Assembly: GCF_963921235.1 (NCBI RefSeq)
Contig: NC_086107.1
Span: forward strand, 100,318,001-100,382,000
Origin: Mobula hypostoma
Taxonomy: Eukaryota
DNA: 64,000 nt
Direction: 5' to 3'
Shown here: one piece after another, positions 13,201 to 36,200 of the stretch
How the letters are laid out: each line of letters starts with the position of its first letter
Numbering within the stretch: position 1 is the stretch's first letter
Program-made: the position numbers and the translations under genes
The notes under the pieces: generated by a model
What the model saw: the letters and a program-made list of their open reading frames with translations, nothing else
What the model was told of the DNA's origin: nothing
Databases searched by the model: none

Positions 13201-16200
13201 GAATGGTCCTCTTTATATTTAAACTTTGTGGGTTCAGTCAATAGAACTAACGGCTTACAGAAGTGATAATCCAGTTTCCCAAACAAATAAACAATGGCTC
13301 CTGAAATTACTTAGCTTCTGTATAGTCATTTCACCTTTATAGTAAAGGCCACACCAGAAGGAGGGAGGGTACAGGAAACAGACTAATGAAAGACATGCTC
13401 AGTGACGCGGTAATTGTCAGAGGTCCATCACTGTTTAGATTACTTGACTTTGCTTAAAGAAGGTCAATAAAGTGACAAAAACCAGCACATCTTACCTTGA
13501 CTGCATCCAACCTTTAGGCCAGATAGGTTTCACCTCAGTTTCCATAAAAGCTTTCAGATAATCCTCTGGTGACTGTGATTTGTTTTGCTCCAGTTCATAA
13601 CATCCCAGCTTTATCTTCACCAGATTACACAGCAAATCCCTGATGAAGTAATGGTAAAGAGATTGTTGTTAATATCTGGGTAGTTTTGGTCAATCACCTT
13701 GCACTGTTGGTTCTCTCTTTTCCCTTAACTTCTCATAGCATGCTCCACCAGCTAGATGTTCATCTTCTCATGAGAAATCAAGTTTGGTCAAATAAACCCA
13801 AGCTATCCAATGTTTCCTCAGAACTACACCCTTCCACTGCTAGGTTCTTGATTAGCCAGGGCATCAATGGGTATGGGGAGAAGGCAGGGAGTGGGGATGA
13901 CTGGAAGAATTGGATCAGCCCATAAATGAATGGCAAAGCAGACTCAAAGGGGTGAATAGCCTACTTCTGCTCCTATATCTTATGATCTTATGAACCAAAA
14001 CTCAAGTGTAGATCTAACCAGTGTTTTTACATAGCTCCAACATGATAGCTCAGCTCTTACATTCAATGCCTCAGCCACAACGGCAAGTATACCAGATGCA
14101 TTTGTCACCTCCCTAACATCCTGTGTTGCCACCTTCAGTGAGATATGAACCTGTACTCTAGGGTCCATCTGTACTTCAATACTCCTAAGATCCCTGCACC
14201 TCTCACTCGCCTGGTTTGAAATCCATTTGCCATTGCTCCACCCAACTTTCCAGCTGACCTTTGTCTTGCTGCATCCTTAGATAACCTTCTTCACTGTTGA
14301 TGACCTTGCCAATTTTTCTGTCATCTTCATACTTACTAATCATACCAACAATATTCTCATCTAAGTCATTTATGTATACTATAAACAATGGAAGTCCCAA
14401 CACTGATCTCTTCAGTACACCACTTGTTATACATTATCAGTCAAAAAAATCATCTTATCCACCACTACCCTCCGCTTCCTATCACCAAGCCAATTTTGGA
14501 TTCTGTTTGCCAACACACCTCAGATGCCTAGTACCTCACCTTCTAGACCAGACTAGCAAAACAGGCCTTATCAAAAGCTTTACTGAAGTCCATGTAAACC
14601 ACATCCTGTCTTCATCAAATTTCTTAATTATCTCCTTAAAAAACTCACTCAACTTAGGATGACATGATCTCCTGGCAGGAAGCCAAGCTGACTTCTCCCT
14701 TCAGTCCCTGCCCTTTCAGGCGAAAATAAATCCTGCTTCTCAGAATCTTCTTCAATAACTTTCCTACCAGCGAAGCAAGGAGCATTAGCATGTGGCTTTC
14801 AGGATCATCCCGACTACCCTGTTTGAACAAGGGGACAGCAACATTCCCCACTCTTCCAGTACTTCACCGATGAAGATACAAAGATCCTCCATCAGAGCCT
14901 CTTACTTCTCATAGACGTTTTAAAATTCGTTATTCAGGTGGGGGGCGTCACTGGCAAGGACTGCATTTATTGCCCATGAGAAAGTGGTATAGTTATCAAC
15001 CTCCATGAACTGTTCAAGGTGTGATGCTTTGTGGTAAAGGCTCACCAACAATAGGAATTGCCAGATTTGGACTTAGTGACAATGGAGGCACAGTGAATGC
15101 ATTTCCAGATCGGGATGGTGTGCAACTTTAAGGGGAACCTCTAGGTGGTAGTGTTTCCTTGTTCTACTTCCTTTGGTAGTAAGATCACATGGTTGAGAGG
15201 TGCGGTCAGATTAACCCCAGTGAGGAACTACAGTGCATTTTGCAGATGGTACACACTATACAAACAGCGCACCAATGGGGATCAAGAAAGTTAACTCTCT
15301 TTGATTTCAGGAGAAGGAAACCAAAGTAAGTACAATCACGAACAAAGTTCAGCAGTGCCTCCACTATCTTAGGAGTTGCCAAAGACTCAACGTGACATCT
15401 AAAATTTTGACAAACTTCTATAGATGTGTGGTGGATAGTATATTGACTGGCCGCACCACAACCTGGTATGGAAGTACCAACGCCCTTGAATGGAAAATCC
15501 TTTAAAAAAAAGTGTGGATACGGCCCGGTTCATCGTGGGTAAAGCCCTCCCCACAACAGAGCACATCTACGTAAAACACTGTTGCAGGAAGGCAGCATCA
15601 GGGACCTCCACCGCGCAGAACACGTTCTCTTCTCGCTGCTGCCATCAGGAAGGTGCTACAGGAGCATAAGGACTCACCCCACCAGGTTCAGGAATAGTTA
15701 TTTCCACTTAACCATCAGGATCTTGGACCAAAGGGGATAATTTCACTCAACTTCACTAAATCATTGAAATGTTCCCACAACCTACAGACTCACTTTCATT
15801 GACTCTTCATCTCATGTGCTCGATATTTACTGTTTAATTAATTATCATTTCTTTATTTTTGTAGTTGCACAGTTTGTGTCTTTTGCACACTGATGAATGC
15901 CTAAGTTGGTGTGCTCTTTCATTGATTCTATTGTGGTTGTTATTCTATTATGGATTTATTGATGTATGCGCACAAGAAAATTAATCTCAGGTTTCTATAT
16001 GGTGACATATATGATAATAAATTTACTTTGAACTATAGTGAAGATATTAAATGGTCAAGGCAGAGGAAGACAGTGCCAAATCAAGTAGATGTTTTGCCCT
16101 GTAAGGTAATGAGCTTCTTCAGTATTATTGCAGCTGTAGAGAAAACGTCATCAAACTCCAGACTTGTGCCTCATAAACAGTGGAAAGGTTTTTGGGTGTC

Positions 16201-19200
16201 AGAAGGCAAATGACTCACCATAGGATACCCAGCCCCAGACCTGCTCCTCAGCCACAATGTGGCTCAAATATTTGAGTTTCTGGTGAATGGCATCCCCTAG
16301 GGTATTGATGCTAGGAGGCTCGATAACACTATTCAGCATCAAGTACAACTGGTTAGCTTCTCTTTTGTCTGGACATTGTCACATGTCGCAATGTACTGTC
16401 TCATTTGCTGGGGAGATGCAAGTGGAATGGAACACTGTGCAGTGAACATCTCCATCTATGACTTTACAAGGACAGAAAAAAAAATGAGCACTCGGTTCAT
16501 TTTCAAGGTAGCATGGAGTGACCAGCAGAATAATGCTAGGGTCATTTTGAAGGGATGATTCAGGAGTGAGATTCAGATACTCTGAGAATTCTGTATTTCC
16601 TAGGGGGCTGTGGATACTTAACGATCAGCCGGGTCCAAAGATGAAATGGATTGATTATCTACCATGTGGAAATGGGAATCAGTGAAAATTGTTGTAAAGG
16701 TTCATGCAAGTTCCACTGAAAGGAAGAACAGACTGGATGGGATGTTTTGGACTGTCAATCTAGATTTGTGTTGGCTTTGGAAGAGGACTTGAGCACAAAA
16801 AAAAATTGGTTCAGAAGCAAAGAAACTTAGTGTCAAAGTACAAAATCTACCAACAACATTCTTGACACTCAAATTGTACAGAAGTGCCAAAGCTAGACAT
16901 TGTGGCCCCTCCGATGATAAGAACTGACTGTATGCTGGACAGAGTAAACCAAGTCTAAAGAAAGACCTCCATATGTCACCATAAAATGGAATTACATCAC
17001 AACGAAAGGTTCGAGATAATTATGTTAATATATTCAGTAGTGACATATATCTTGAATCATACATCCTGTGGAGTATCATTACAAGTCTTCTTAAAGATAC
17101 TTTTCTATACTTTGCATGAAAAGAGACTCCTACATGGCAAATTGCCTCCCAGGTACCAGGGTCAGAGGTGTCTCAGATCTGGTCCACAGCATTCTTAAGG
17201 AGGATGATGTGCAGCCAGAAGTCATGGTATGCACTGATACTAATGACATAGGGTAGGGTAAGGGGATGAGGTCCTGAAGAGCGAATATAGACAGCTAGGT
17301 AGTTAGCTAAAAAGCAGTAACTCAAGGATAGTAAACTCTGGATTTCAGCCTGTGCCGGTAAGGTAATAGGGAAATCCTGGGAATTATAGATCAGTGAGTC
17401 AGGATTCATAGACAAGATTTAAGAGCATTTGGAGAAGCATAGTCTGCATGGAGATAGTCAGCATGGCTTTGTGAAGGGCAGGTCATGCCTCACAAGCCTG
17501 ACTGAATTCTTCGAGGAAGTGACAAAACAAATAGATGAAGGCAGAATAGTAGATGTGGTATATATGGATTTAATTAAGGCATTCAACAAAGTTCTCTGTG
17601 GTAGGCTCATTCATAAAGCCAGGATGCATGGGATCCAGGGAAATTTGGCTGAGTGGATTCAGAATTGGCTTGCCCACAGAAAGCAAAAGGTGGTACTAGA
17701 TGTCGAGAGTATTCTGCCTGGAGGTCAGTGACCAGTGGTGTTCCACAGGAATCTGTTCTGGGATCCCTGCTCTTTGTGATTTTTATTAATGATGGATGGG
17801 GTGGGTTAGTAAGTTTGCAGATGACAGGAAGTTTGGCAGTGGTGTGGACAGTACAGAAGAATGTTGTAGTTTATAACAGGATATTGATAGGATGCACAGC
17901 CGGGCTAAGAAATGGCAGATGGAGTTCAGTCCAGAATAATGTGAGGTGATACACTTTGGAAGGTCAAACCTGAAGGCAGAGCATAGGGTTCTAGCAGCGT
18001 GGAAGACCTTGGGATCCACATCCATAGATCCCGAAAAGTTGCCGCGTAAGTTGATAGGGTAGTTAAGAAGGTGTCTGGTGTGTTGGCCTTCATTAATCAG
18101 GGGATTAAGTTCAAGAGCTACCAAGTAATGCTGTAGCTTTATAAAACTGGTTAAACCACACGGAGTATTGTGTTCAGTCCTGGTCACGTTATAGGATGTG
18201 GAAGCTTTAGAGGATGCAGAGGAGATTTACCAGATTTGTCTGATCCCTCTGAGGAAAGGTTGAGTGAGTCCTTTGGAATGAAGGAGGATGAGAGGTGACT
18301 TTAGATAGAGGTGTATAAGGTGATAAGGCGTATTGATAAGAGTGAGTAGCCAGTGCCTTTTCCCCAGGGCAGAAATAGCTAATATGAGAGGTCATGATTT
18401 TAAGGTGATTGGAGGGAAGTATTGGGGGGGGGGGGGAACCAGAGGTAGTGTGCTTTCTCACTGGACATCGTTTCTAGAATTGTATTTCCAGTTCATCCAG
18501 TAGGTGCTTGAGCTGCTAAGACAGAAAGGACTTCTAATAGATAGAACCTCAATAACAGGAAGCATTTTACGCTCCAGATATTTTCTTTCACTGGCTGTGG
18601 CTGCAGCTTTTCGACAAGAAACACACAGTGCCTGAGTTATGCAACGTGTCAGTTTTTCTCTAGTTCATTCAGATGAATTCATTGCATCAACTGGAACAAA
18701 AATAGGAACTGATGCAAATATACTGAACTTCTGTTAAGCTCTATGAGGAAAGAACGGTTGTGTGTGTGCGTGTGGGGGGGGGTGACTGGTTGCATTAGGA
18801 ACATGTGTACTAGGCACGTAAACATTTAAGTATGAAGAGCAGCAAGGGTGAACATTTCCACAGAGACAATGATGAAGCAAGGGGGAGAGGATGGACATTT
18901 TGGGTTGGATCTGGAGTAATGGGAGGCTTAAGTTCAGGAAGAAAATGAAATTGTAGAGAGATGAAGTAGAATAGAAAATGACAAACAGAATAACATGAAA
19001 GACAGAAATATTGAAAAGGATTAAAAAATTGGCAGGCATTTTGGAAAATGTACAGCAGAAAATTAATGGTGAGATTTAAAACAAAAGAACTATCATGTAT
19101 AGGAAATGGAGGGTTCACACTCAGAACACTATCTGGTACTGTAGGAACCTCAGGAGGGCACTCCACTCCTTCAGCTTGCTTCAATTCAATCAGATCGTGC

Positions 19201-21230
19201 CTGATCTGTGCTTCATATACACATTGTTGGACTTGATACCTTTAACCCAGAAAATATTTCTATTCTGTCTTAAAAATTCCAATGCCCCAACACCTTTTTG
19301 AGAAGGCTGCAGATCTTCCTGCAGAACTACCTAATCGGCTAAGCTACATTTCAACATGCCACTCCTAGCACTCTATTCACCAAGAGAAAAGGTTCCTCAG
19401 TATCTAGGCAATCAAGGCGTCAAAAGATTAAAGATGAAGATAAAAAAGAATATTTCACAGTTAAAATAAAAAGTACAGTAGAAAATGTCATAAATGCTAC
19501 AAAAAACTGTTTATTGACAAAGATAGAATTATTACATAATCTATAGAAGAGGAAACAGATCTCAGGATAAAATAGAAAATTTGAAATTAAATACAAAGCT
19601 TTTATCAATAAGACTGCCCATTATCATTAGTCAAGAATTGATAAAAATCTAACTGATTCTTTGCTATTTTACATGGTTAAGTTTGAGTGCCTCTGGTCAC
19701 AAGCTTGGTTCAGTTATTATTACCCTTGAAAGCCACTCAGTTGTACCAATCCACAGCAAATGATAACAGCCTCATCAGCATCTCTTCACAGCAACTAAGG
19801 ATGGAGATTAAATGCCAGAGGCACGCACACATTCTTCAAAAGTATGTGAACTAGAATTGCATGTACAATAAGCCTAAAACATCAGAGCAAATAACTTAAG
19901 CTGTTGAAATCAAAATTGGTTTTGAGTGGAGTAAAAAACCTAATTTGAACCTGCCGGTTAAAACAAAACTGAACTTTCTGTATATGTCATTTGTGTATTG
20001 CTGAGTGTTCGAGTTAACAGTTTACTGGGTGAAATCCAGCGTGCTATATTAACTATTTTCAGTTAACTGGTGAAGTAGCAGGGCATTTAGCCCATATACA
20101 GTACTGTGCAAAAGTCTGAGGCACATATATATATAGCTAGGGAGCCTCAGACTTTTGTACAGTAATGTAGTAATTTAATGTATTGCTCTGAACTGCTGCC
20201 AAACAAAAAAAAAAATTCAGGACACACGAGTGACGATAAACTTGATTCTGATATGGGTCTCTAGAGTGGGAAGGGGGGCAGGGAGAGGGGAGTCATGGTT
20301 GGGAAGAAGGGAAGGGAGAGGGGAGGGAGCGGGAAGCACCAGAGAGACATTCTGTAATGATCAATAAACCAATTGAGCTTGCCTGGTGTCTCAGGGCTTC
20401 CACCAGATTTACAAACTCACTCTGTGCTCCACATTGACAAATCCAGCATTGTGCAAACGTTGTAGGCACCCTAGCTATATATATGTGCCTAAGACTTTTG
20501 CACAGTGCTGTACACAACCAAAGTCACAGCGAGTCCTTCTGGCAAGTGGATATGCAAGTTCAGACTTATTTATTCTAATCTTTTCTAAAATATAATAGTT
20601 TTCTTAATATTTAAATGTGAATGAAATCTTGTGAAGTAGTGTTGGTTACAGAATAGTTTAACTACATGTTGAGAGACTTTATTGTCATTGGTGGGAAGCT
20701 ATAAAAAGAATAAATTTATATCCAATTTTAATTATGTGGAAAAAAGAATTTATAACAGTAGAAATTTAATTAAAATTAAACTAGGCATGACAACCCGCCT
20801 CAGAGTACTGAAATGTTACGTTTATCCAGTTATGTTATATGGCTCAGAATGTTGGACAATATCTAATAACATGACGAAACAAATTGTAGCAGCAGAGATG
20901 TGGTTTTTGAGAAGGATGCAAAGAATATCATGGATGAAACGAATATCTACCGAGGATGTCATGAACAGAGCAAACACAAAAAGAGAAATAATGTATGAAA
21001 TCATGAAAAGGCAATGTAACTTTACTGGACATGTGATTAGGAAAGAGGAGTTAGAATGCACGGTAATTATGGGAAGGATTGAAGGGAAGAAAGCAAGAGG
21101 ATGACAAAGGCAAATGATGATGGAGACAGCAGCCAGAGAATTGGAAATGAATACCAATGAATTGATCCACTTGACCCAAAACAGGAGTGTGTGGGCCACG
21201 GCAGTCAAAGCTCAAACTGGGCACGGCACT

Positions 21231-21279
<49 letters not shown>

Positions 21280-24200
21280 GATGATGAGAAATTTAAATGT
21301 GAAAAAGCACTATCAGGAGTAATTTATTGCTAAGAAATAGAAGACCACAGACGAAACACTGGTAAAAAGGATTAGAATGGATGGGTAAACAACAGGAATT
21401 CTGCAGATGCTGGAAATTCAAGCAACATACATCAAAGTTGCTGGTGAACGCAGCAGGCCAAGCAGCATCTATAGGAAGAGGCGCAGTCGACGTTTCAGGC
21501 CGAGACCCTTCGTCAGGACTAACTGAAGGAAGAGTGAGTAAGGGATTTGAAAGCTGGAGGGGGAGGGGGAGATGCAAAATGATAGGAGAAGACAGGAGGG
21601 GGAGGGATAGAGCCGAGAGCTGGACAGGTGATAGGCAAAAGGGGATACGAGAGGATCATGGGACAGGAGGCCTAGGGAGAAAGACGGGGGGGGGGTGACC
21701 CAGAGGATGGGCAAGAGGTATATTCAGAGGGACAGAGGGAGAAAAAGGAGAGTGAGAGAAAGAATGTGTGCATAAAAAGGAGTAACAGCTGGGGTACGAG
21801 GGGGAGGTGGGGCCTAGCGGAAGTTAGAGAAGTCAATGTTCATGCCATCAGGTTGGAGGCTACCCAGACGGAATATAAGGTGTTGTTCCTCCAACCTGAG
21901 TGTGGCTTCATCTTTACAGTAGAGGAGGCCGTGGATAGACATGTCAGAATGGGAATGGGATGTGGAATTAAAATGTGTGGCCACTGGGAGATCCTGCTTT
22001 CTCTGGCGGACAGAGCGTAGATGTTCAGCAAAGCGGTCTCCCAGTCTGCGTCGGGTCTCACCAATATATAAAAGGCCACATCGGGAGCACTGGACGCAGT
22101 ATATCACCCCAGTCGACTCACAGGTGAAGTGATGCCTCACCTGGAAGGACTGTTTGGGGCCCTGAATGGTGGTAAGGGAGGAAGTGTAAGGGCATGTGTA
22201 GCACTTGTTCCGCTTACACGGATAAGTGCCAGGAGGGAGATCAGTGGGGAGGGATGGGGGGGACGAATGGACAAGGGAGTTGTGTAGGGAGCGATCCCTG
22301 CGGAATGCAGAGGGGGGGGGAGGGAAAGATGTGCTTAGTGGTGGGATCCCGTTGGAGGTGGCGGAAGTTACGGAGAATAATATGTTGGACCCGGAGGCTG
22401 GTGGGGTGGTAGGTGAGGACCAGGGGAACCCTATTCCTAGTGGGGTGGTGGGAGGATGGAGTGAGAGCAGATGTACGTGAAATGGAGGAGATGCGTTTAA
22501 GAGCAGAGTTGATAGTGGAGGAAGGGAAGCCCCTTTCTTTAAAAAATGAAGACATCTCCCTCGTCCTAGAATGAAAAGCCTCATCCTGAGAGTAGATGCG
22601 GCGGAGACGGAGGAATTGCGAGAAGGGGATGGCGTTTTTGCAAGAGACAGGGTGAGAAGAGGAATAGTCCAGATAGCTGTGAGAGTCAGTAGGCTTATAG
22701 TAGATATCAGTGGATAAGCAGAGGATAAGAATGGATGGGTGTTTAATGGGCTTCAGAGATGGGGTGGGCCCGTATCTGTGCTGTACGACTGTGAGGAAAC
22801 AAAACTATAGAGAAAGGAAATGTTCTTAGGTAGTATATTTTTAAAACAATGTCGATGAGGCCAACCTTAAAAGAATCATCTGACTAATATAATTTCAATA
22901 CTGTTTTTTTGCTACTTCTGTTATCAGCTGTAAATCAGGACACGAAGTATTCTGCCATGTACTTGGCTTTGTGTCATTTCTGAGAATGCAGAAGGATAGA
23001 TTTGAATCAAGTTATCTTCCAACACAGAGTGTAGACCATAGGATGAAATGTTTTATGTATATGTTTCAAATTTAGCATAGAAAAGTATATTTTATGGAGA
23101 AAATAACAGAACAACTTCATATCTTAAAAAAAAAACTGCAGTTTACTGAAGCACGTGTACTGACTGTTCAGTAACCTTGGTCATAGGAGGAACTGATACA
23201 AGCTATGAGTCGCATCACTAGTCTAGTTCAATCCTTTTCTTTTTATTTAACTACCTTTAAATCCACTTCTGGGGAAACGAGAAGTTAGTGCAGCAGTACA
23301 GCATCAAGGTCAAACTCTGGTCTGTCAGCCTCTCCAACAATTGAGAGTCAATAATAAAATTCATTCATCTGAAGGGCATCTCAAAAACAGAATTTGGTGC
23401 AGGTATTAAAAACTAACCAAGGAATAGAGATAAAATGAGAGAAAGCAGCTACAACAAAGGAGATACAATAGAACAGACAACACTTCAGATTCACCTCAGG
23501 ACATAATAAAGTGTTTTTAAAAACACAAACATGAGGATGCTGGAAATTCAAGCAACACAGATCAAAGTTGCTGGTGAACGCAGCAGGCCAGGCAGCATTT
23601 CTAGGAAGAGGTACAGTCGACGTTTCGGGCCGAGACCCTTCGTCAGGACTAACTGAAAGAAGAGCTAGTAAGAGATTTGAAAGTGGGGGGGGGGGAGACC
23701 CAAAATGATAGGAGAAGACAGGAGGGGGAGGGATGGAGCCAAGAGCTGGACAGTTGATTGGCAAAAGGGATATGAGAGGATCATGGGATAGGAGGCCCAG
23801 GGAGAAAGAAAAGGGGGGGAACCCAGAGGATGGGCAAGGGGTATAGTGAGGGGGACAAAGGGAGAAAAAGGAGAGAGAGAAAAAAAATGTGTGTATATAA
23901 ATAAATTAACAGATGGGGTACGAGGGGGAGGGGGGGGCATTAGCGGAAGTTAGAGAAGTCAACATTCATGCCATCAGGTTGGAGGCTACCCAGACGAAAT
24001 ATAAGATGTTGTTCCTCCAACCTGAGTGTGGCTTCATCTTTACAGCAGAAGAGGCCATGGATAGACATATCAGAATGGGAATGGGATGTGGAATTAAAAT
24101 GTGTGGCCACTGGGAGATCCTGCTTTCTCTGGCGGACAGAGCGTAGATGTTCAGCAAAACGATCTCCCAGTCTGCATCGGGTCTCGCCAATATATAGAAG

Positions 24201-27200
24201 ACCACATTGGGAGCACGGGACGCAGTATATCACCCCAGCCGACTCACAGGTGAAGTGTCGCCTCACCTGGAAGGACTGACTGGGGCTCTGAATGGTGGTA
24301 AGAGAGGAAGTGTAAGGGCATGTGTAGCACTTGTTCCACTTGCAAGGATAAGTGCCAGGAGGGAGATCGGTGGGGAGGGATGGGGGGGACGAATGGACAA
24401 GGGAGTCGCGCAGGGAGCAATCCCTGCTGAAAGCATGGGGGGGAGGGAAAGATGTGCTTGGTGGTGGGATCCCGTTGGAGGTGGCGGAAGTTACGGAGAA
24501 TAGTAAGACCATAAGACAAAGGAGCAGAAGTAAGCCATTCGGCCCATCGAGTCTGCTCCGCCATTTTATCATGAGCTGATCCATTTTATCCTATTTAGTC
24601 CCACTGCCCCGCCTTCTTACCATAACCTTTGATGCCCTGGCTACTCAGATACCTATCAATCTCTGCCTTAAATACACCCAATGACTTGGCCTCCACTGCT
24701 GCCCGTGGCAACAAATTCCATAGATTCACCACCCTCTGACTAAAAAAATTTCTTCGCATTTCTGTTCTGAAAGGGCGCCCTTCAATCCTGAAGTCATGCC
24801 CTCTCGTACTAGACTCCCCCATCATGGGAAACAACTTTGCCACATCCACTCTGTCCATGCCTTTTAACATTCGAAATGTTTCTATGAGGTCTCCCCTCAT
24901 TCTTTTAAACTCCAAGGAATACAGTCCAAAAGCGGACAAATGTTCCTCATATGTTAACCCTCTCATTCCCGGAATCATTCTAGTGAATCTTCTCTGTACC
25001 CTCTCCAACATCAGCACATCCTTTCTTAAATAAGGAGACCAAAACTGCCCACAGTACTCCAAGTGAGGCCTCACCAGCGCCTTATAGAGCCTCAACATCA
25101 CATCCCTGCTCCTATACTCTATTCCTCTAGAAATGAATGCCAACATCGCATTCGCCTTCTTCACTACTGACTCAACCTGGAGGTTAACTTTAAGGGAATC
25201 CTGTACGAGGACTCCCAAGTCCCATTGCATCTCAGAACTTTGAATTCTTTCCCCATTTAAATAATCGTCTGCCCGTTTATTTTTTCTGCCAAAGTGCATA
25301 ACCATACACTTTCCAACATTGTACTTCATTTGCCACTTCTCTGCCCATTCTTCCAATCTATCCAAGTCTCTCTGCAGACTCTCTGTTTCCTCAGCACTAC
25401 CGGCCCCTCCACCTATCTTCGTATCATCAGCAAACTTAGCCACAAAGCCATCTATTCCATAATCCAAATCGTTGATGTACAATGTAAAAAGAAGCGGCCC
25501 CAACATTGTTCCCTGTGGAACACCACTGGTAACCGGCAACCAACCAGAATAGGATCCCTTTATTCCCACTCTCTGTTTCCTGCCAATCAGCCAACGCTCT
25601 AACTTTCCTGTAATTCCATGGGCTCTTATCTTGTTAAGTAGCCTCATGTGTGGCACCTTGTCAAAGTCCTTCTAAAAATCCAAATATACAACATCCACTG
25701 CATCTCCCTTGTCTAGCCTACTGGTAATTTCCTCAAAAAATTGTAATAGGTTTGTCAGGCAGGATTTTCCTTTAAGGAATCCATGCTGAGTTCTGCCTAT
25801 CTTGTCATATGCCTCCAGGTACTCTGTAACCTCATCCTTGACAATCGACTCCAACAACTTCCCAACCACCGACGTCAAGCTAACAGGTCTATAATTTCCT
25901 TTTTGCTTCCTTGCCCCCTTCTTAAATAGCGGAGTGACATTTGCAATCTTCCAGTCTTCCGGAACCATGCCAGGATCTATCGACTTTTGAAAGATCATCG
26001 CTAATGCCTCCCCAATCTCCACAGCTACTTCCTTCAGAACACGAGGGTGCATTCCATCTGGTCCAGGAGATTTATCAACCTTTAGCCTATTCAGCTTCCT
26101 GAGTACTTTCTCTGTCGTAATTGTGACTGCACACACTTCTCTTCCCTGCCACCCTTCAGTGTCCGGTATCCTGCTGTCTTCCTCAGTGAAGACTGATGCA
26201 AAATACTTGTTCAGTTCCTCTGCCATCTCCTCATCTCCCATTACAATTTCTCCAGTATCATTTTCTATTGGTCCTATATCTACTCTCACCTGTCTTTTAC
26301 TCTTTATATACTTGAAAAAGCTTTTAGTGACCTCTTTGATATTATTTGCTAGTTTCCTTTCATAGTTAATCTTTTCTCTCTTAATGACTTTCTTGGTTTC
26401 CTTTTGTAAGGTTTTAAAAACTTCCCAATCCTCTGTCTTCCCACTAATTTTTGCTTCCTTGTATGCCCTCTCCTTAGCTTTAACTTTGGCTTTGACTTCT
26501 CTTGTCAACCACGGTTGTATCCTTTTACCGCTCGAAAATTTCTTCTTTTTTGGAATATACCTGTCTTGCACATTCCTCATTTCTCGCATAAACTCCAGCC
26601 ACTGCTGCTCTGCCGTCTTTCCCGCCAGTGTCTCTTTCCAGTCAACTTTGGCCAGTTCCTCTCTCATGCCACTGTAATTTCCTTTACTCCACTGAAACAC
26701 CGACACATCAGATTTTGGCTTCTCTTTTTCTAATTTCACAGCGAACTCAATCATGTTATGATCACTGCCTCCTAAGGGTTCCTTCACCTCAATCTCTCCA
26801 GTCACCTCCGGTTCATTACACAATACCCAATCCAGTACAGCTGATCCCCTAGTGGGCTCAACAACAAGCTGTTCTAAAAAGCCATCTCGCAGACATTCTA
26901 CAAATTCTCTCTCGAGATCCAGTGCCGACCTGATTTTTCCAATCTACTCGTATGTTAAAATCCCCCACAATTATCATAACACTGCCCTTCTGACAAGCCT
27001 TTTCTATTTCCAGTTGTAATTTGTAGTCCACATCCCTGCAGCTGTTTGGAGGCCTATAAATAACTGCCATCAGGGTCCTTTTACCACTGCTATTCCTTAG
27101 CTCAACCCATAAAGATTCTGCACCTTCCGATCCTATATCACCTCTTTCTAATGATTTAATATCATTTCCTACCAATAAAGCCACACCTCCCCCTCTGCCT

Positions 27201-30200
27201 ACCTTCCTATCCTTCCAATACACCGTGTATCCTTGGACGTTCAGCTCCCAGAGACCTCCTCCTTTGTCCTATCTATGTCATTGGTACCAATATGTTGGAC
27301 CCGGAGGCTGGTGGGGTGGTAGGTGAGGACAAGGGGAATCCTATTCCTAGTGGGGTGGTGGGAGGATGGAGTGAGAGCAGATGTGCGTGAAATGGGGGAG
27401 ATGCGTATGAGAGCAGAGTTGATGGTGGAGGAAGGGAAGCCCCTTCCTTTAAAAAAGGAGGACATCTCCCTCGTCCTGGAATGAAAAGCCTCATCCTGAG
27501 AGCAGATGCGGTGGAGACGGAGGAATTGTGAGAAGGGGATGGCATTTTTGCAAGAAACAGGGTGAGAAGAGGAATAGTCCAGATAGCTGTGAGAGTCAGT
27601 AGGCTTATAGTAGACATCAGTAGATAAGCTGTCTCCAGAGATAGAGACAGAAAGATCTAGAAAGGGGAGGAAGGTGTCGGAAATGGACCAGGTAAACTTG
27701 AGGGCAGGATGAAAGTTGGAGGCAAAGTTAATGAAGTCAACGAGCTCAGCATGTGTGCAGGAAGCAGCACCAATGCAGTCAGTGTTTTGTTGAATTGGCA
27801 AAAATTGGAATAAGGAGACCAGGCTAGAAGAGGCAAAGGGACTGAGAGAATGGAATTTGAAAAAAATGGAAGCATCTAATCTCATGTATCTTGCATTCTC
27901 AAATATAGCCATTCCAGGAAGGACCGAATTATTGTTTATTTAAGGAAGATTAAGTAAATTATTTTGGAAATGATCTTTGAATTTAGATTAAGAAAAGCTA
28001 AATATTCTTTTATGGTGATGTAAGTTGATGGATAAATATTGGCCATGACTGCTTCCTCAAGATTAAAGTCTCACTTGAATGATGAAAGTGCTACCTGCAT
28101 TTTTCGCCACTCAAAAGGGTGAAGGTACTGGGATTTGTTGAAGTTTAATTACTGAGACAGATATTTGATTGTTAGGTGGTTTATGGGACAATGATGGGCA
28201 AACAAAGTTGATACAAAATATCCAACTCTACTTTTATGCTCCCAGGTAAGATAAAGAGATCGGAAATAAAACAATAATTACATTGGAAATCAAAGTCCTC
28301 AGAGTAGTACCAAACCTTCTACACATAAATACAGCACTATTGGTTTTGAAAGGTATCACTGTTTGTTTAGACTGACTTTCAGTCTTTGAATAACTATACA
28401 ATTATTAACATTGCTTTTGGTTCCTCAATGCACTGTGATAATCATAATTATCAACACCAAAAATGTAAAAGCACCCCTCAGCTCATAGAACTCTTACCTG
28501 ACATAATCATTCCAAAGAAACTTTTTCCGTGGTCCTGATACCCTTCGGCCTGGCTTATCGTCATCCTCCTCTTCAGATCCATTTTTATCTCGATCCTCTT
28601 CAGATGCTATCCTGAGGAAAAAACCAAGTGTATCACAGAGAGCTGGGAACTATTCCCCACTGAACTTGCATTTACAGAGAGCTGTTCATCTGCAGTATTC
28701 ACACAGGTATAGGCACCAACCCTAAGCAATAACAAAAGTCTAAGAGTGGGAAAGGATGAAACGTACAGTCAGTACATGAAAGACAAAAAACCTACAGAAG
28801 CTGGAAATGAGAAATACAGTGCTGTACAAAATTCTTAGGCATATATGTATAGCTAGGGAGCCTAAGATTTTTGCACAGAACTGTAGTAATTTTAAGTATT
28901 GCACTGTACATCTGCCACAAAAAAAACATATTTCATAACACGTGAGTGATGACCATCGTGATTCTGATACGGGTCTCTATTGTGGACTGAGAGTGGGAAG
29001 GAGGCAGGGAGAGGGGACCCATGGTTGGAAAAAGGGCAAAGGAAAGGGGAGGGAGCGACAAGAGAGACATTCCGTAATGATCAATAAACCAACTGTTTGG
29101 AATCAAATGACCTTGCCTGGTGTCTCAGGGCTGGGTATGTCTGCACCCGTGCCAACCCCCTGACCCTGGCACTCCTCCTCTACCATCTGTCCCACACCCC
29201 TCCCGCGGTGCTCCGCCACCATCACCATTCCCAACAGTCCTTTCTCCTGCCAGATTTGCAAACTCACTCTCTGCTCCATGTTGACAAATGAAGTACGTTG
29301 CAAAAGCCTTAGGCACGTTAGCTATATATGTGTCTAAGACTTTTGCATAGCACTGTAAAAAACAGAAAAATGTTGTAAGCATTCATACGTCAGTCAGCGT
29401 ATGTGTAAAGAAAATCAGTTATTGTTTTAGGTCATTGCTATTTTCCTTTCCACAGGTGCTGCCTGACCTGCTGAGTCTTTCCAACACTTACTCTTTTCAG
29501 AGGGCATGATGCAACCTGACCAAAAAAAAAGTTGCCAAATGAGAAACAAATGCATATTGCCTCCACGTACTTCAGCTCAACACTACATTCAAACAATTTG
29601 CAATAAATTAGAAGCAAAGGGATTTAGGGCTGTAGAAACACGAATTGCTAAAAGCTACTGCTTCTATATCAATGGGCCTAAGGAACAATGACTTGCTGCT
29701 TCATTTTGACGCAACCTTGTTTAGACCTCGCTGAGAAGCACTTAACCAGGACAGAAAATGCAGAAGCAGTTAATGTTTCAGGGCTGAGAGAAGTAAAGAC
29801 AAAGACAAAAAAACTTTCTCTTTTGTTCTTGCCTACATTTCTTCCTTTCTCTGCATCTGAAAGTCAATTTCATCTCCTTAATTCCTTCAGTGACAAGTTT
29901 CTGCAGATTTGGCAGGCAATCTAAAATTTCGACAGACTTCTACAGATGCACAGTGAAGAGTATCCCGACAGATTGCATTATGGTATGGAAGCACTAACGT
30001 CCAAGAGTGGAAAAAACTATAAAAAGTGGTGGATATAGCCCAGTCCACTACAGGAAAAGCCCTTCACACCATTGAGTATATCTATAAGGACTCATCTCAT
30101 GTTCTCTATATTTATTGCTTATTTATTTAAATTATTGTTTCTTCTTTTTTTGCATTTGCAGTTTGTTGTCTCCTGCACTCCGGTTGAACAGCCTAGTTGG

Positions 30201-33200
30201 GCGGTTGTTCAATGATTCTGTTATAGTTACTATTCTATAGATTTGTTGAGTTTGCACGCAAGAAAATGAATTTCAGGGTTGTCTATGGTGACATATATGT
30301 ACTTTGAACTTTAAGGAGCAGTGCCGCAGGAAAGCAGCATCCATCATTAAGTACCCGCACCACCCAGGCTATGCTCGCTTCTCACTGCTACCATCGGGAA
30401 GGAGGTACAGGAGCCTTAGTTCCCACACCACCAGATTCAGGGAGTTATTACCATTCAACCATCAGGCTCCTGAACCAGCATGGTTAACTTCACTCACCTC
30501 ATCACTGAACTCACGTCCTTGGTGTTATTTATTTATGAATTGTATTTGCCTGATTTGTCTTCTTTTGCGCACTGGTTGTTTCTCAGTCTTTGTGTGTAGT
30601 TTTTCATTAATTCTATTGTATTTCTTTGTTCAACTGTGAATGCCTCCAAGAAAATGAATCTCAGTGTAGTACATGGTGACAATAAAGTTACTTTGAACTT
30701 TGAAGTGGTCGCACATAATGCATTCCTCACCTATGAAGTCTCTCCAACATTAGGGGTGCAAACGCTAAGTGATTTCCTCAGTCCAGAAATCAGAATTAAT
30801 GGTGATGACCTGTTGCATTGGCAGTCAAGGTCAGCTAATCTTTCATGGTTCTTCAAATTCCACAATGTTACCTGACTCCATCCCTGCCTCAACCCATGTG
30901 CTGCTGAAACTACTGCCTACCCTGTGTTCTCCTGCTTGATTGCCCATCCTTCATAAACCTAGAATCATGTTCCATCATCATCATCATCTTCTTTTTCTTA
31001 AGACAATCGCTGAGGACTGAGGATGAACTGCTTCCAATTCAGTTCTGTTGTGGCTGAGGAGATCTACGTGAGATTTATAGCCTGTCATCAGTGCCTGACA
31101 CAGGCAGATGGGCTCCTTTCCACATTATTACTGGGTTTCTACATGCTCCTAATGGAGAGACCTGAGACTCTTAGTGCCACCTGGGACACTCCATTCTGAG
31201 CAGGCATGGGTCAGTTGGAGGGGATGTTTCCTTCCCTCCAAACCCCCAAGAAGATCCTCAGCATTTTTCTTTCAATCTCCCAATAATCATTTGAATGGAA
31301 ACTCAGTGTCAATTGCTTGCTTCAGGGACCTAAGTGCTGGAAATATAAATTCTATGGTTTGCCCACCAGAGACAACTGGGTGCAATTAGAGCCTCACTGG
31401 AAAAGGACACTGATGTTGATTCATTTTTCCTGTAAGTTGTCTTAGTCACTGAAGAACAGAGGGTGGTGGGGATTACTGCTGACTGAGTAACCATTGCTTT
31501 CTGAGTGGTTTGATATTTTGAACATCTCAAGCTAACACACGAGAGGGTGGTGATCATCATCACTCTATGTTGTAAGAGTCCTGTTCACATTTCACCCCAT
31601 TAACTTACCTAGCTCCCTGCCCAGCAACAATTTCACGCACATAACTTCCTCCAGTTCCACAAAACCCTCAAAATGTTACAGTCCAGTACTTGAAGTTTTG
31701 TGCAGCACTTGGGAGAAAACACTTGGAGAAAGGTGTAAGGATACACATACTTGGCAGACCGGGCCTTTGTGTGTGCTTGCAGTTCTTCCTGGTATTTTAT
31801 CAACTGTGCCGGCATTGCATTTGCCACTGCTTCCTTCAGTTTCTGTGTAGGATCACGTAACCGCTCATCCTGCAAAGGCAACAGAGATGTTGATAAAGGA
31901 ATACAATTCGCACTTCTGTCGTGCATTTACAACTCGGCACACCCCACAGCACAGTCAATGAAGTTGTTTTGAAGTACAGTCTTTGTCATATTATAAGAAA
32001 CATTGCTGCCAATATGCATGCAGCAAACATACACAAACAGCACGCCGATCACATTCTACTTTAGAATATTCGTTGGAGTTAATTATTATCTAGACAGTAA
32101 GGGAAATCCTGCTTTTCAAACAGCGGCACCAGATCCCAGGAAGCAGAAAGGATCTCGTTTTCTTGTTTGAAAGTTAACTTCCATGACAATACCACAAGTA
32201 CTTGGCCTGTCCCCTAAAACCCTCACTTAATTTTTATAGATGCACCGTAGAAAGCATTCTTCCAGGGTGCATCACAACCTGGTATGGAAGTTGTCCTGTC
32301 CAAGACTGGAAGAAGCTGTAGAAGATCATGAACACAGCCCAGCACATCACACAAACCAATCTTCCGTCCTTGGAATCACTTTACACCGCATGCTGTCGGA
32401 GCAGTGCTGCCAGGATAATCAAGGACACGACCCACCCAGCCAACACACCTTTCGCCCCTCTTCCCTCTGGGAGAAGGCTCAGGAGCTTGAAGACTCATAC
32501 GGCCAGATTTAGGAACAGCTTCTTTCCAACTGTGATAAAGACTGCTGAATGGATCCTGACCCGGATCTGGGCTGTACCCTCCAAATATCCGGACCTGCCT
32601 CTCGGTTTTTTTGCACTGCCTTACTTTCCCTTTTCTATTTTCTATTTATGATTTATAATTTAAATTTTTACTACTTACTATTGATTTGTACTCCAGGGAG
32701 CACAAAGCACAGAATCAAATATCGCTGTGACGATTGTACGCTCTAGTATCAATTGTTTGGCAACAATAAAGTATAAAGTACTTCACTGGACTGTCAGCCT
32801 CAAACCACTGGAGTCAGGATTAAATCCCTAATCTCCACAGACTGGGAAGGAAGCAAATTTACTCAGCATAGTTTAACCTCCGTTGGCAGTGCACATAACG
32901 GAGAAGAAATCATGTAAGATTCGAAGGAGGTCATCACCATTTTAAAATGACACATTCTTCACGAATATAAATGTTGATTTTATTTACAATTAAAGAACAA
33001 AAATTATGGAGTTAACTACTGTAAACAACTTGAATCATTTAGAGCAACACACATCAAAGTTGCTGGTGAACGCAGCAGGCCAGGCAGCATCTCTAGGAAG
33101 AGGTACAGTCGACGTTTCAGGCCGAGACCCTTCGTCAGGACTACTAGCTCTTTCTTCAGTTAGTCCTGACGAAGGGTCTCGGCCCGAAACGTCGACTGTA

Positions 33201-36200
33201 CCACTTCCTAGAGATGCTGCCTGGCCTGCTGCGTTCACCAGCAACTTTGATGTGTGTTGCTTGAATTTCCAGCATCTGCAGAATTCGTGTTTATGAATCA
33301 TTTAGAGGTTCTCTCCAACACAATTAAAGCAGTTGGGAGGGGCAGACCTGGGAGTATATCATGAGCATAGTGACAAGTTTACACAGGCAATTTCTACTAT
33401 AAGCATTAACACAGGAATTTTTAATGGAAAAGTTTGCAACTGCAACATTGACCGAAAATAAGGCAACGTCTATAAGAGCGCACATTTATTATTTTAGGTA
33501 ATCTATTACTACTGAAAGAACAATAGAGATGGTTCCAGATGATGAAACCTTGAACAAAAAAAAACCTCCTGGAGGAACTCAGCAGGTCAAGCTGACGCCG
33601 ATGCAGGAATTTGTCTCAAAATGTTGACAATTCCTTTCCCCCTCCACAGTATGCTGTGTTCCTCTAGCAGATTGCTTGCTGCCCAAAGCACCTTCACAAT
33701 AGGAACTAGAACGGTATGGTTTGTTCAGCCCTGAGTAAAACAAACAATCTAGAATCTAGACTCTAGATCCTCTGTTTGGGAATTTCACGAGCTCTGATTG
33801 CTGCTTCCAGTCTGATCCACAGCCTAGGAATTGGGCAGGATGCTTAAAGTTTGTGCTAATGAACTTCAGGGAAACACTTCTGTTCAAGATTTATGATTGT
33901 TCAATGTCAGTGTAAAGGAGAACAAAATAATTGTTATTCTAGCTCCAAAGCAGCACAATAAGATAAAGAACACAATAATAAAAAAACACAATAAACATAA
34001 ACACATAAGATAGCTTATGTAAACCAATTTCCCCCGGGATCAATAAAGGATGACTATGACTATGTACATAGATCGATTGCATGTCCATAAAGCGGTGCCA
34101 TGCACAGGAGTGTCTGTACATAAGGTGGCTGACAGGAAATGATGAAGGAGTGGTGGTGGGGTGTGTGAAGGGGAGGCTTGCTGCTTGAGGTAACTATTTC
34201 TGAGTCTGGTGGTCCTGGTGTGGATGCGGTGCAGCCTCCTCCCTGAAGGGAGTGGGGCAAACAGCCCGTGAGCAGGGTGGGTGGGATCCTTCATGATGTT
34301 ACTGGCTCTCTTCCAGCACCTTTCTGATGGTGGGTAAGCTGGTGCCAGTGATGCACTGGGCAGGTTTGAACATCTGTTTAGAGCCTTCCTGTCCACCACA
34401 GCGCAGCTTCCATACCAGGCAGTGATGCCGCTTGTTAGGATGCTCTCTACTGGGCATCTGTAGAACGAAATGAGTGTGGGTATGCACAATCCTGCTCTCT
34501 TCCAGCCTTCTCAGAAAGTAGAGGTGTCAGTGAGCTTTTCTGACTGTGCAGAATGTGTTCCGATGTCATAAGAGGTTGTGCAAGGTGTGAGTTCTTTTGA
34601 AGTTGATACCCATCTCCTTTGTCTTGTTGACATTGAAGGAGAGTTACTTGCCAGGCCTCAAGCTCTTCCACTTTCTCTCTATACACCATCTCATCGGTGC
34701 TGGTGACAAGCCCCACCAATGTCATGTTATCGGCGAACTTGACAATGTGATTATCCGGGTGCTTAGTTGTGAGGTCATGTGTGACCAGAATGTACAACAA
34801 TAGGCCCAGCACACAGCTCTGGGGGGGGGGAGGGGGCACCCGTGTTGAGGATGACGGGGAGCGAGGGGTCATTGCGCATCCTGACTATCTGGGTTTCTGG
34901 TTGGCATTCGTACTTTTTGATTTTGCAATGGGTAATATATAGTGATGTTGTTGGAATTCTCATGTGACCTGCAGGGCTTCAGAGTCAGCTACTAATTGAT
35001 AGATAAAGACAGATAATTGATTAACCTTTTCAGGAAAGACCATCCAATATAGGCCAAAAGCTGCGATGCACAACTAGTGATCCATGAAGATCATTCTGCC
35101 CCCAAACCACATTTTATCGACTTTCACACAAGCCAAGAGGTGGCTTCAGAAATCAGTCAGTTAACACACACAGGTTAAGCTTTCTCACTTCCATGGTATC
35201 TGAAGTTCTTCAAACAAAAATGGATAAGGAACAATCAAACCTGTTTGTATTTGAATCTAGGTTTCCGCCTGTAAACTCCCTTTCCTCAAGCAGATCTGTC
35301 ATTATTGGTTATGGAAGCAGCAGTTTAGTGTTTGCTTAATGTTCTTGAAAGCTCTCTAAGCTCATGCTTAATGTTCTTGAAAATTAATAGACTGATTTTG
35401 AAAGAAAATGAGAAATAAAGTTCCCTTTTAATTATATATATTTCGCTTCCTTTCCCTCTCCAGCAGCAACCTAATCCATGAATTCAGCTCCCAAAATCAA
35501 GACCTCGTGCTCCTCTGATAGCCAAAAGAGCCGCACCCATAGGCTTTCTGTGAAAAAAACTTAACTTTGTGAATGCCGCCGACAATCAGTAACAATCAAC
35601 AATTACAACAAATCAGGGGATTAATAATTAAATTTTAAAATTAAAGCCTTAGAAAGATCAGACACTTAAAATACTGCAAAATACAAAAAAAATTTAAATA
35701 CATTTAAATTAAACAGTTTTAACTCAGAGTTCAAATATGTAAATTACAAATATGTAAATAGAACCTTTCTCTCCTCATTGAAATTAATAATTACTTAATG
35801 CGCACCCAAGCCAATCACTGTGCTCCTATATCCAACATTATTGCAGCCAAGACCCATGCAAAACAGGAGAGGCAAGGCAAGAGTGACTTCAATACAGCAC
35901 TTGAAAGAAGGAGCCCTGTTAAAACAGGTCAATGGGAATGGAAACTGGTCAAGAGGTCTCCACTCACATAAAGGAAAATGGTTATGTGGTTTACAGAGAG
36001 ACATTTACCTAAGCCCCAAGACAGCAGCAGGAGTTCCTCAGGGCACGGCCCAAGACTCAACCACCTTAACTGTTTTATCAACGACCTTCTCTTCTTAAAA
36101 GTTGAGTGGTGTCGTAGCAACAACCTTGCACTCAGTGTCAGTAAAACCAAACAGCTGATTGTGGACTTCAGAAAGGGTAAGACGAGGGAACAAACACCAG

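What the first reader, a model, noticed from the sequence alone, without database searches (positions are those of the whole stretch)
21485..23650. Two intact, sense-oriented minimal hammerheads 2.13 kb apart in one ubinuclein intron: possible cis-dimeric self-cleavage of the pre-mRNA
Seen: two Penelope 3' ends in direct orientation each carry aguc-CUGACGA-A-GGG-ucucgg-CC(C/U)-GAAA-cg-UC^-gacu on the minus strand, which is the host transcript strand. Both lie in intron 13640-28497; predicted cuts are at 23619/23618 and 21489/21488. Established: PLE-associated minimal type I hammerheads have a palindromic stem III (here ACGU) and cleave mainly as dimers (Cervera and de la Pena 2014; Lunse et al. 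2017). Inference: two separate insertions may supply both halves of a dimer in one nascent RNA. That would excise a 2130-nt intronic RNA that includes the GIY-YIG ORF of the 21387 element, could be circularised, and might affect host splicing.
Basis: partly seen in the sequence, partly recalled or inferred. Interest (0 to 1): 0.78.

Follow-up and report, generated by a model that had tools for sequence, protein, structure and literature searches.

The report
Ordinary Penelope-element hammerhead motifs in intron
Two broken copies of a very abundant Penelope-like jumping gene sit in one intron of a cartilaginous-fish ubinuclein gene, each still carrying the family's small hammerhead self-cutting motif, and such pairs are about as common in this genome as chance predicts.

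Summary
Minimal type-I hammerhead motifs lie on the minus strand at 23646..23619 and 21516..21489. Both are in the sense direction of a ubinuclein gene, in intron 28497..13640, with predicted cuts 2130 nt apart.

Each motif sits about 85-100 nt from the 3' end of a 5'-truncated, dead Penelope-like element (PLE). The upstream copy also carries a nested LINE.

The configuration is not special:
- The 3.48-Gb genome holds 88,531 such motifs, against 35 for the reversed control.
- Same-strand pairs within 2.2 kb occur at the chance rate: 3 observed among 100 consecutive sites, 3.4 expected.
- The window itself has 4 intact and at least 4 CpG-decayed copies.

Two hammerheads on one RNA acting as a dimer is the published model for these motifs (Cervera and de la Pena 2014). 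That work also reports very low activity. A 2024 study found protein-dependent cleavage and no RNA-seq ends at the site.

Nearest-neighbour folding disfavours the active dimer by 10-19 kcal/mol. No RNA data for the locus could be obtained.

Verdict: known kind, probably inert here. This scan has already reported similar motifs in other shark DNA.

The parts
23619..23646 (-). Hammerhead motif A (core CTGACGA ... GAAA ... CGTC; CCC variant with a G10.1-C11.1 pair). Predicted cut between 23619 and 23618. Helix I flanks agtc/gact lie at 23650-23647 and 23618-23615.
21489..21516 (-). Hammerhead motif B (CCT variant with a G10.1-U11.1 wobble, the majority form in the genome). Predicted cut between 21489 and 21488.
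23536..27939 (-). Element A: a 5'-truncated Penelope-like element. It has an RT C-terminal/linker part at 27939-27241 and a GIY-YIG part at 24590-23943, followed by a 3' tail with the hammerhead. It is split by a nested LINE.
   Evidence: (D2, D4, D7)
24595..27268 (-). LINE nested in element A. Pfam matches: Exo_endo_phos 4.4e-05; RVT_1 2.6e-16 and 1.1e-05.
21391..22790 (-). Element B: a 5'-truncated, frameshifted Penelope-like element with a linker, a GIY-YIG remnant at 22400-21817, and a 3' tail with the hammerhead. It is 90.6-94.7% identical to element A.
22791..23535 (.). Non-repeat intron spacer between the two elements. It would form part of the hypothetical 2130-nt fragment.
   Evidence: (no repeat-derived contigs laid at 22728-23483)
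13640..28497 (-). Ubinuclein intron holding both elements. The donor GT is at 28497-28496 and the acceptor AG at 13641-13640.
33043..33291 (.). Inverted pair of PLE tails in the next intron upstream. It has a sense hammerhead at 33138..33111 and an antisense one at 33166..33193. As RNA it is predicted to fold into one long hairpin (-216 kcal/mol, z -31.8).
   Evidence: (I5)

Best explanation
These are two independent, dead, 5'-truncated insertions of one very abundant Penelope-like retrotransposon family of a cartilaginous-fish genome. They landed in the same 14.9-kb ubinuclein intron in the sense direction. Each keeps the family's standard minimal type-I hammerhead about 85-100 nt before the element's 3' end, because the copies are young, not because the host needs the motif. 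The motif's native context is the element's own transcript. There, by the published model, two copies pair through the palindrome ACGU to build helix III, probably with help from the element's protein. At this locus the two motifs are most likely inert passengers of the pre-mRNA. Shown: the motif, its position, its host, its copy number and the chance-level frequency of pairs. Inferred: inertness.
For: Motif and anatomy. Host gene, strand and intron borders. Family identity rests on several results. The GIY-YIG remnant ends about 300 nt upstream of the motif in both copies. The motif lies downstream of GIY-YIG-type open frames in several of the 20 sampled loci. A family copy with a 450-aa open frame gives a weak RVT_1 match (21.9 bits). 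Its full-length database relatives of 800-960 aa carry RVT_1 plus a C-terminal GIY-YIG. By precomputed Pfam, 98 and 30 of the 120 listed proteins carry these. On rescanning, one relative scored 38.8 and 28.5 bits, both above cut-off; the other scored 25.0 for GIY-YIG, above cut-off, but 29.4 against 29.6 for RVT_1. Abundance: 58,924 matches to the 32-mer at up to 1 mismatch (control 0), and 88,531 matches with any helix II (control 35). Pairs are ordinary. There were 3 same-strand pairs within 2.2 kb among 100 consecutive sites against 3.4 expected. Of 20 sampled sites, 2 have a second intact same-strand motif within 2.2 kb and 5 within 5 kb. From the density, about 1.6% of introns of this length would hold two or more sense copies by chance (my arithmetic). 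There is no sign of maintenance by the host. All four older motif copies in the same gene that the relaxed scan picked up have lost a core or palindrome base at CpG sites, for example G12 to A at 4629, 49670 and 59784, and C15.2 to T at 61090. Folding also argues against activity. Each monomer's MFE is an inactive hairpin in which core GACG pairs with CGUC at the cleavage site (-13.5 and -11.7 kcal/mol). The double hammerhead scores -15.4, and forcing it in the 2186-nt RNA costs +18.9. The local 141-nt contexts are no more stable than shuffles (z -0.05 and -0.37). Literature: single min-HHRs show no detectable self-cleavage, and dimeric or trimeric constructs show low activity mostly at non-physiological Mg2+ (PMC4209133). 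[quoted passage not shown] The Anolis Poseidon hammerhead cleaved only with the element's protein, and no RNA-seq reads began or ended at its site (PMC11167929).
Against: The arrangement does mimic the native one. Cervera and de la Pena describe tandem motifs about 3 kb apart in full PLEs and propose that such copies dimerise, so a 2.13-kb spacing on one transcript is not implausible in principle. Both copies keep every core base. Nearest-neighbour models ignore tertiary contacts, Mg2+ and proteins. Some copies of the family still lie in long open frames of up to about 935 aa, so element protein might be present in some cells. I have no RNA data for this locus, so low-level cleavage cannot be excluded. 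The frequency estimates rest on one 3.2-Mb stretch and on 20 sites.
Confidence: 0.85

Rival explanations
1. The two motifs on one nascent ubinuclein pre-mRNA pair through ACGU into a double hammerhead and cut at both sites. This releases a 2130-nt intronic RNA that may be circularised and may disturb splicing.
For: Both motifs are complete, in the same orientation, sense to the gene and in one intron. The spacing resembles the roughly 3-kb tandem spacing described for full PLEs, and dimer-dependent cleavage is the published model (PMC4209133; PMC6765202 passages citing Lunse et al.).
Against: Published activity is low even for designed dimers, and was protein-dependent in the one element tested, with no in vivo ends seen (PMC4209133, PMC6765202, PMC11167929). 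The active fold is 10-19 kcal/mol less favourable than the alternatives in the nearest-neighbour model. In B's 141-nt context the MFE does not even form helix II. Extrapolating, roughly 3,000 such pairs exist genome-wide at the chance rate, with no visible avoidance. Older copies in the same gene decay neutrally.
Confidence: 0.05
2. Sporadic cleavage in trans. Either motif pairs not with its neighbour but with one of the many other transcribed copies of the family, possibly helped by element-encoded protein, so the second copy in cis is irrelevant.
For: There are 88,531 motif copies in the genome. The family has copies in long open frames. A bimolecular complex is what RNAcofold evaluates, and the palindrome is identical in all copies. 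Protein-assisted cleavage has been reported for an Anolis PLE (PMC11167929).
Against: The low-activity data are the same as above. The cofold MFE of two copies is an extended, inactive duplex (-33.5 kcal/mol) and not the hammerhead fold. No expression data could be obtained.
Confidence: 0.06
3. The pair arose by a local segmental duplication of one insertion and not by two insertions.
For: The copies share 90.6-94.7% identity over about 1.3 kb and have the same orientation.
Against: The 5' truncation points differ: A reaches at least 27629 and probably about 27740-27939, while B starts at 22790. The 3' ends differ. The flanks are unrelated. Only A has the LINE insertion. The motif variants differ (CCC against CCT). 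A is closer to the 33-kb copies (96-97%) than to B (90.7%).
Confidence: 0.03

Closest known systems
Minimal type-I hammerheads (min-HHRs) of metazoan Penelope-like elements (Cervera and de la Pena 2014, PMC4209133; Lunse, Weinberg and Breaker 2017, seen only as cited in PMC6765202 and PMC7761336)
   Same: The core boxes CUGANGA / GAAA / UC are present. Helix I is short (4 bp plus a U-G). Helix II is 4 bp. There is an unpaired base between positions 9 and 10.1. Positions 15.1-16.1 form the palindrome ACGU with no loop 3. The motif lies in the terminal repeat or tail of a PLE. It occurs in tens of thousands of dispersed, mostly truncated copies, and frequently as close opposite-strand pairs.
   Different: The host lineage is a cartilaginous fish, which is not named in the parts of the paper I read. 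Helix II is 4 bp, not the 7-8 bp described for Schistosoma. The majority family variant has G10.1-U11.1 instead of the 'highly conserved' G10.1-C11.1 (71 of 100). N7 is C, which lets the core pair with the cleavage site in an inactive hairpin.
Double hammerhead of tandem transcripts (Forster et al. 1988, newt satellite and viroid RNAs; cited in PMC4209133) and animal non-LTR retrozymes (PMC7229834 search listing; bioRxiv 10.64898/2026.07.22.740005 passages)
   Same: There are two same-sense hammerheads with unstable helix III on one RNA. The logic of excision and possible circularisation of the RNA between the cuts is the same.
   Different: Those are true tandem repeats of a short unit (a few hundred nt) transcribed as multimers. 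Here two unrelated insertion events are separated by unique intron sequence, and the intervening 2130 nt is not a repeat unit. No circle or cleavage product is known.
[quoted passage not shown] 2012; seen only as references in PMC7761336)
   Same: A sense-oriented hammerhead inside an intron of a protein-coding gene.
   Different: By my recollection those are single-copy, ultraconserved, canonical hammerheads with a stable helix III and loop-loop contacts. This one is a repeat copy without helix III. No Rfam hammerhead model matches it, and older copies in the same gene have decayed.

Membership tests
PLE-type minimal hammerhead (min-HHR) | Conserved core in order: C3U4G5A6N7G8A9 ... G12A13A14 ... 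A15.1 ... U16.1 H17 | tested here: met
   Both copies read CTGACGA ... GAAA CG TC. The motif gives 88,531 genomic matches against 35 for the reversed control.
PLE-type minimal hammerhead (min-HHR) | Helix I formed by the immediate flanks (4-5 bp) | tested here: met
   agtc/gact plus a U-G pair are present in both copies.
PLE-type minimal hammerhead (min-HHR) | Helix II closed by G10.1-C11.1, with an unpaired base between 9 and 10.1 | tested here: inconclusive
   The extra A is present in both copies. Copy A has G-C. Copy B, like 71 of the first 100 genomic copies, has G-U. The effect on activity is unknown.
PLE-type minimal hammerhead (min-HHR) | Palindromic 15.1-16.1 without a helix III loop, allowing a dimer | tested here: met
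   ACGU is present in both copies. A nested double-hammerhead structure can be written and evaluated at -15.4 kcal/mol.
PLE-type minimal hammerhead (min-HHR) | Self-cleavage at the predicted site | not testable with these tools
   No RNA run is on record. The contigs laid came only from the repeat parts.
PLE-type minimal hammerhead (min-HHR) | Compensatory changes in helices among copies | tested here: inconclusive
   The 100 listed copies differ mostly by CpG transitions. There were too few double changes to count.
Rfam hammerhead families | Match to a curated covariance model | tested here: not met
   There were no matches at gathering score in the window. No hammerhead match appeared at E up to 10 in 20500-24500 or in the 81 nt around motif A. 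The models presumably expect a helix III hairpin (my inference).
Penelope-like element | Reverse transcriptase domain | tested here: inconclusive
   The RT domain is absent at this locus because both copies are 5'-truncated; no RVT_1 was found in 27241-27939 or 22241-22804. A family copy gives a weak match of 21.9 bits against a 29.6 cut-off. Full-length database relatives score 38.8 and 29.4 bits, and 98 of the 120 listed carry PF00078.
Penelope-like element | C-terminal GIY-YIG endonuclease in the same ORF | tested here: met
   The window copies score 20.7 and 17.9 bits, below the 22.6 cut-off. Relatives score 25.0 and 28.5 bits at the C-terminus. The nearest Atlas clusters carry GIY-YIG (a lead only).
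Penelope-like element | Terminal repeats or partial copies in direct or inverted order, with variable 3' tail ends | tested here: met
   There are five inverted tail pairs in the window. Among the genomic close opposite-strand pairs, 12 of 15 are in the same -/+ order. The 3' ends differ among the four copies.
Retrozyme-like / double-hammerhead excision unit | Head-to-tail repeats of one unit, each with a hammerhead, giving unit-length linear or circular RNA | tested here: not met
   The 2130 nt between the cuts is made of tail A, 745 nt of unique intron and truncated element B. It is not a repeat unit.

The most novel reading that the evidence does not exclude
The two neighbouring motifs do form a cis double hammerhead on the nascent ubinuclein pre-mRNA, perhaps chaperoned by Penelope protein from still-coding family members. 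They would clip a measurable fraction of transcripts and release a 2130-nt RNA with 5'-OH and cyclic-phosphate ends that a cellular ligase could circularise. Thousands of chance pairs of dead retrotransposon tails would then act as a hidden layer of intron cutting in cartilaginous-fish genes.
Probability: 0.04. Interest if true: 0.6.

Novelty: new member of a known kind. Interest (0 to 1): 0.13.

Why it matters
As it stands it matters little. It adds one more lineage and family to the known minimal hammerheads of Penelope-like elements, and it shows that the 'two motifs in one intron' arrangement is what chance gives at this copy number. If such pairs were shown to cut host pre-mRNAs, the question would become genome-wide and directly testable with end-specific RNA sequencing. 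That test would use the roughly 88,000 motif sites, not this one locus.

Tried and rejected
- **Rfam.** Gathering thresholds gave no matches. Permissive E-values gave no hammerhead match; the only hits were spurious snoRNA-like matches on a GAT microsatellite at 21229-21315.
- **First motif pattern.** It had the wrong spacer length and found nothing. It was corrected.
- **RNA evidence.** No RNA holder is listed. None of the 24 runs is on record as RNA, and the best holds 0.49 of the sampled words. Laying contigs of four runs covered only the repeat parts. The unique spacer bins 22728-23483 had zero depth in three runs and at most 2.6 in the fourth. This says nothing about transcription or cleavage of this locus.
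- **Wider genome sampling.** I used the position list instead.
- **Solved structures.** There were no PDB relatives at E up to 1 for a family ORF or for the window ORF.
- **Lunse et al. 2017.** The paper is not held, so its rates and constructs were not seen. The supplementary figures of PMC4209133 (S6, cleavage assays) were not opened.
- **Sense-orientation bias of tails in this gene.** Among single tails the count is 4 minus to 1 plus, and the rest are inverted pairs. This is too few to claim a bias.
- **Earlier notes of this scan, searched by sequence.** Nothing was found.
Full report
**1. The observation**

Read on the minus strand, the window contains two motifs:
- agtc CTGACGA A GGG TCTCGG CCC GAAA CG TC gact, with the core at 23646..23619.
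- The same string with CCT in place of CCC, at 21516..21489.

The host gene is a ubinuclein on the minus strand:
- Pfam HUN matches the frames at 56877-57011 (E 2.8e-10) and 54382-54666 (E 2.2e-06).
- Pfam UBN_AB matches 47460-47783 (E 5.1e-12) and 13495-13668 (E 1.3e-17).
- The exon ending CAG at 28498 is followed by gtaagag. The next exon begins after ttcatcag, which ends at 13640.

Both motifs are therefore sense-oriented in intron 28497..13640.

**2. What the motifs sit in**

Each motif lies about 85-100 nt upstream of the 3' end of a retroelement copy.

*Element B (22790..21391)*
- It starts inside the linker between RT and endonuclease.
- It changes frame once.
- It ends with a GIY-YIG-type frame. 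The Pfam score is 20.7 bits, below the 22.6 cut-off.

*Element A (about 27939..23536)*
- It reaches further 5' than B.
- It is split by a nested LINE at 27268..24595 (Exo_endo_phos and RVT_1).
- It ends with a GIY-YIG-type frame (17.9 bits) and the same tail.

A and B are 90.6-94.7% identical. They differ in 5' truncation point, 3' end, flanks and one motif base. A's tail is closer to two copies at 33 kb (96-97%) than to B (90.7%). They are therefore two insertions, not a duplication. Between them lie 745 nt of non-repeat intron.

**3. Which family**

Neither window copy retains an RT domain, so I looked elsewhere in the genome.
- A family ORF from another locus finds 134,397 first-look candidates, of which 147 were scored at 81-87% identity. 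Some of those lie in open frames of up to about 935 aa.
- A copy with a 450-aa open frame gives a weak RVT_1 match (21.9 bits, below cut-off).
- Its longer database relatives number 162 at E up to 1e-10, with 120 listed at up to 57% identity. They are 800-960-aa metazoan proteins. By precomputed Pfam, 98 of the 120 carry PF00078 and 30 of the 120 carry PF01541.
- Two of these were rescanned. One scores 38.8 bits for RVT_1 and 28.5 for GIY-YIG, both above cut-off. The other scores 25.0 for GIY-YIG, above cut-off, and 29.4 against 29.6 for RVT_1. In both the GIY-YIG domain is C-terminal.

RT plus a C-terminal GIY-YIG endonuclease plus a terminal hammerhead is the Penelope-like architecture described in PMC4209133. 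Earlier notes of this scan on the same genome call it a cartilaginous fish. I did not test that.

**4. Is it a hammerhead of the known minimal kind?**

Cervera and de la Pena (PMC4209133; I read the abstract, results, discussion and bioinformatic methods) list these traits of PLE min-HHRs:
- the core boxes;
- a short helix I;
- an unpaired base between 9 and 10.1;
- a G10.1-C11.1 pair;
- palindromic 15.2-16.2 with no helix III.

Copy A meets all of them. Copy B has U at 11.1. That is not a private defect. Of the first 100 genomic matches, 71 have T there and 26 have C, while other CpG positions are changed in far fewer of them. So G-U is the main variant of the family.

No Rfam model matches, even at E up to 10 on 81 nt. 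I read it as a limit of the models, which presumably expect a helix III hairpin. Variation among copies is almost all CpG transitions, so covariation is uninformative.

**5. How special is a same-strand pair?**

- The 32-mer occurs 58,924 times at up to 1 mismatch (reversed control 0).
- The motif with any helix II occurs 88,531 times (control 35). That is one per 39 kb of a 3.48-Gb assembly.
- Among the first 100 sites, spanning 3.2 Mb of one contig, there are 3 same-strand pairs within 2.2 kb. One is spaced 2118 nt. The Poisson expectation is 3.4.
- Among 20 exact sites whose ±5 kb I fetched, 2 have a second intact same-strand motif within 2.2 kb, 5 have one within 5 kb, and 6 have one on the opposite strand.
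- Extrapolating one search gives roughly 3,000 such pairs genome-wide.
- From the density, about 1.6% of introns of this length should hold two sense copies by chance (my arithmetic).
- The window alone has four intact copies and at least four decayed ones.

The arrangement is what chance gives here.

**6. Would the pair cut?**

The 2014 authors even filtered their hits for proximity below 50 kb and noted tandem motifs about 3 kb apart (PMC4209133). The published evidence on activity is discouraging:
- They found no detectable self-cleavage for a single motif, and low activity for dimeric and trimeric constructs, mostly at non-physiological Mg2+.
- A review calls the rates 'very low, even as dimers' (PMC6765202, passages).
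- In the Anolis Poseidon element the hammerhead cleaved only when the element's protein was added, catalytic mutants did not affect insertion, and no public RNA-seq reads began or ended at the site (PMC11167929, passages).

My own folding agrees:
- Each monomer's MFE is a hairpin in which core GACG pairs with CGUC at the cleavage site (-13.5 and -11.7 kcal/mol).
- The nested double hammerhead of A with B scores -15.4, against -25.2 for the two hairpins and -33.5 for an extended duplex.
- Enforcing the double hammerhead in the 2186-nt RNA costs +18.9 kcal/mol.
- In 141-nt contexts neither site is more structured than shuffles, and in B's context helix II is not even in the MFE.

These models ignore tertiary contacts, ions and proteins, so they lower the odds but do not exclude cleavage.

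Two further points:
- Older copies of related tails in the same gene have lost G12, C15.2 or both through CpG decay. This is what neutral passengers do.
- A third sense copy in the upstream intron is locked with its inverted partner in a predicted long, nearly perfect hairpin of -216 kcal/mol.

**7. What could not be tested**

No run is on record as RNA. The contigs of the four runs I laid cover only the repeat parts and not the unique spacer. There is therefore no evidence either way on transcription, ends or circles at this locus. I did not see Lunse et al. 2017 (not held) or the supplementary cleavage figures of the 2014 paper.

**8. Verdict**

The proposed significance rests on a configuration that is common by chance in this genome, and on a mechanism that is already the textbook proposal for these motifs and has weak experimental support. 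The most likely reading (0.85) is two inert retrotransposon remnants. Measurable cis-dimer cleavage of the pre-mRNA gets about 0.05.

This is a new member of a known kind, of low interest. The scan has already reported Penelope-type minimal hammerheads in introns of other shark DNA (e1-7790369, e1-7788743).

Noticed in passing
window 33043-33291; also 47892-48020, 49556-49766, 59784-59913, 61005-61219: Tails of this element family often occur as tight inverted pairs, with a minus copy followed by a plus copy and the hammerheads 36-85 nt apart. There are five such pairs in the window. In 3.2 Mb of another contig, 15 opposite-strand pairs lie within 2.2 kb against about 3.4 expected, and 12 of them are in the same -/+ order. 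The pair at 33 kb would fold as RNA into one long hairpin (-216 kcal/mol).
   Followed up: partly
genome-wide (one search list); window 21489-21516 and 33111-33138: The commonest form of the motif has T at position 11.1, giving G10.1-U11.1 (71 of the first 100 matches). Other CpG sites are changed far less often. This looks like a master-copy variant and not decay, and it departs from the G10.1-C11.1 pair described as highly conserved.
   Followed up: partly
window 23619-23650 and 21489-21520 (minus strand): Because N7 is C, core bases G5-A6-C7-G8 are complementary to C15.2-G16.2-U16.1-C17. The monomer's predicted best fold is therefore a hairpin that buries both the catalytic core and the cleavage site. 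This could be a built-in off state.
   Followed up: partly
genome, no coordinates given on purpose: A few of the 147 scored copies of the family's ORF lie in open frames of about 900-935 aa without stops, so the family may be recently or still active in this genome.
   Followed up: no
window 21229-21315: A GAT/ATC microsatellite just downstream of element B produces weak, spurious C/D-box snoRNA matches (best E 0.031, 26 bits against an 80-bit gathering score).
   Followed up: yes
window 59768-60002 and 61074-61308: A local direct duplication, 97% identical over 235 nt and spaced 1306 nt, includes a decayed hammerhead tail.
   Followed up: no
window 9771-11042 and 48309-49377: Two copies of another repeat, 85-89% identical and about 38.5 kb apart, have transposase-like open frames on the minus strand. 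Neither was scanned against Pfam.
   Followed up: no
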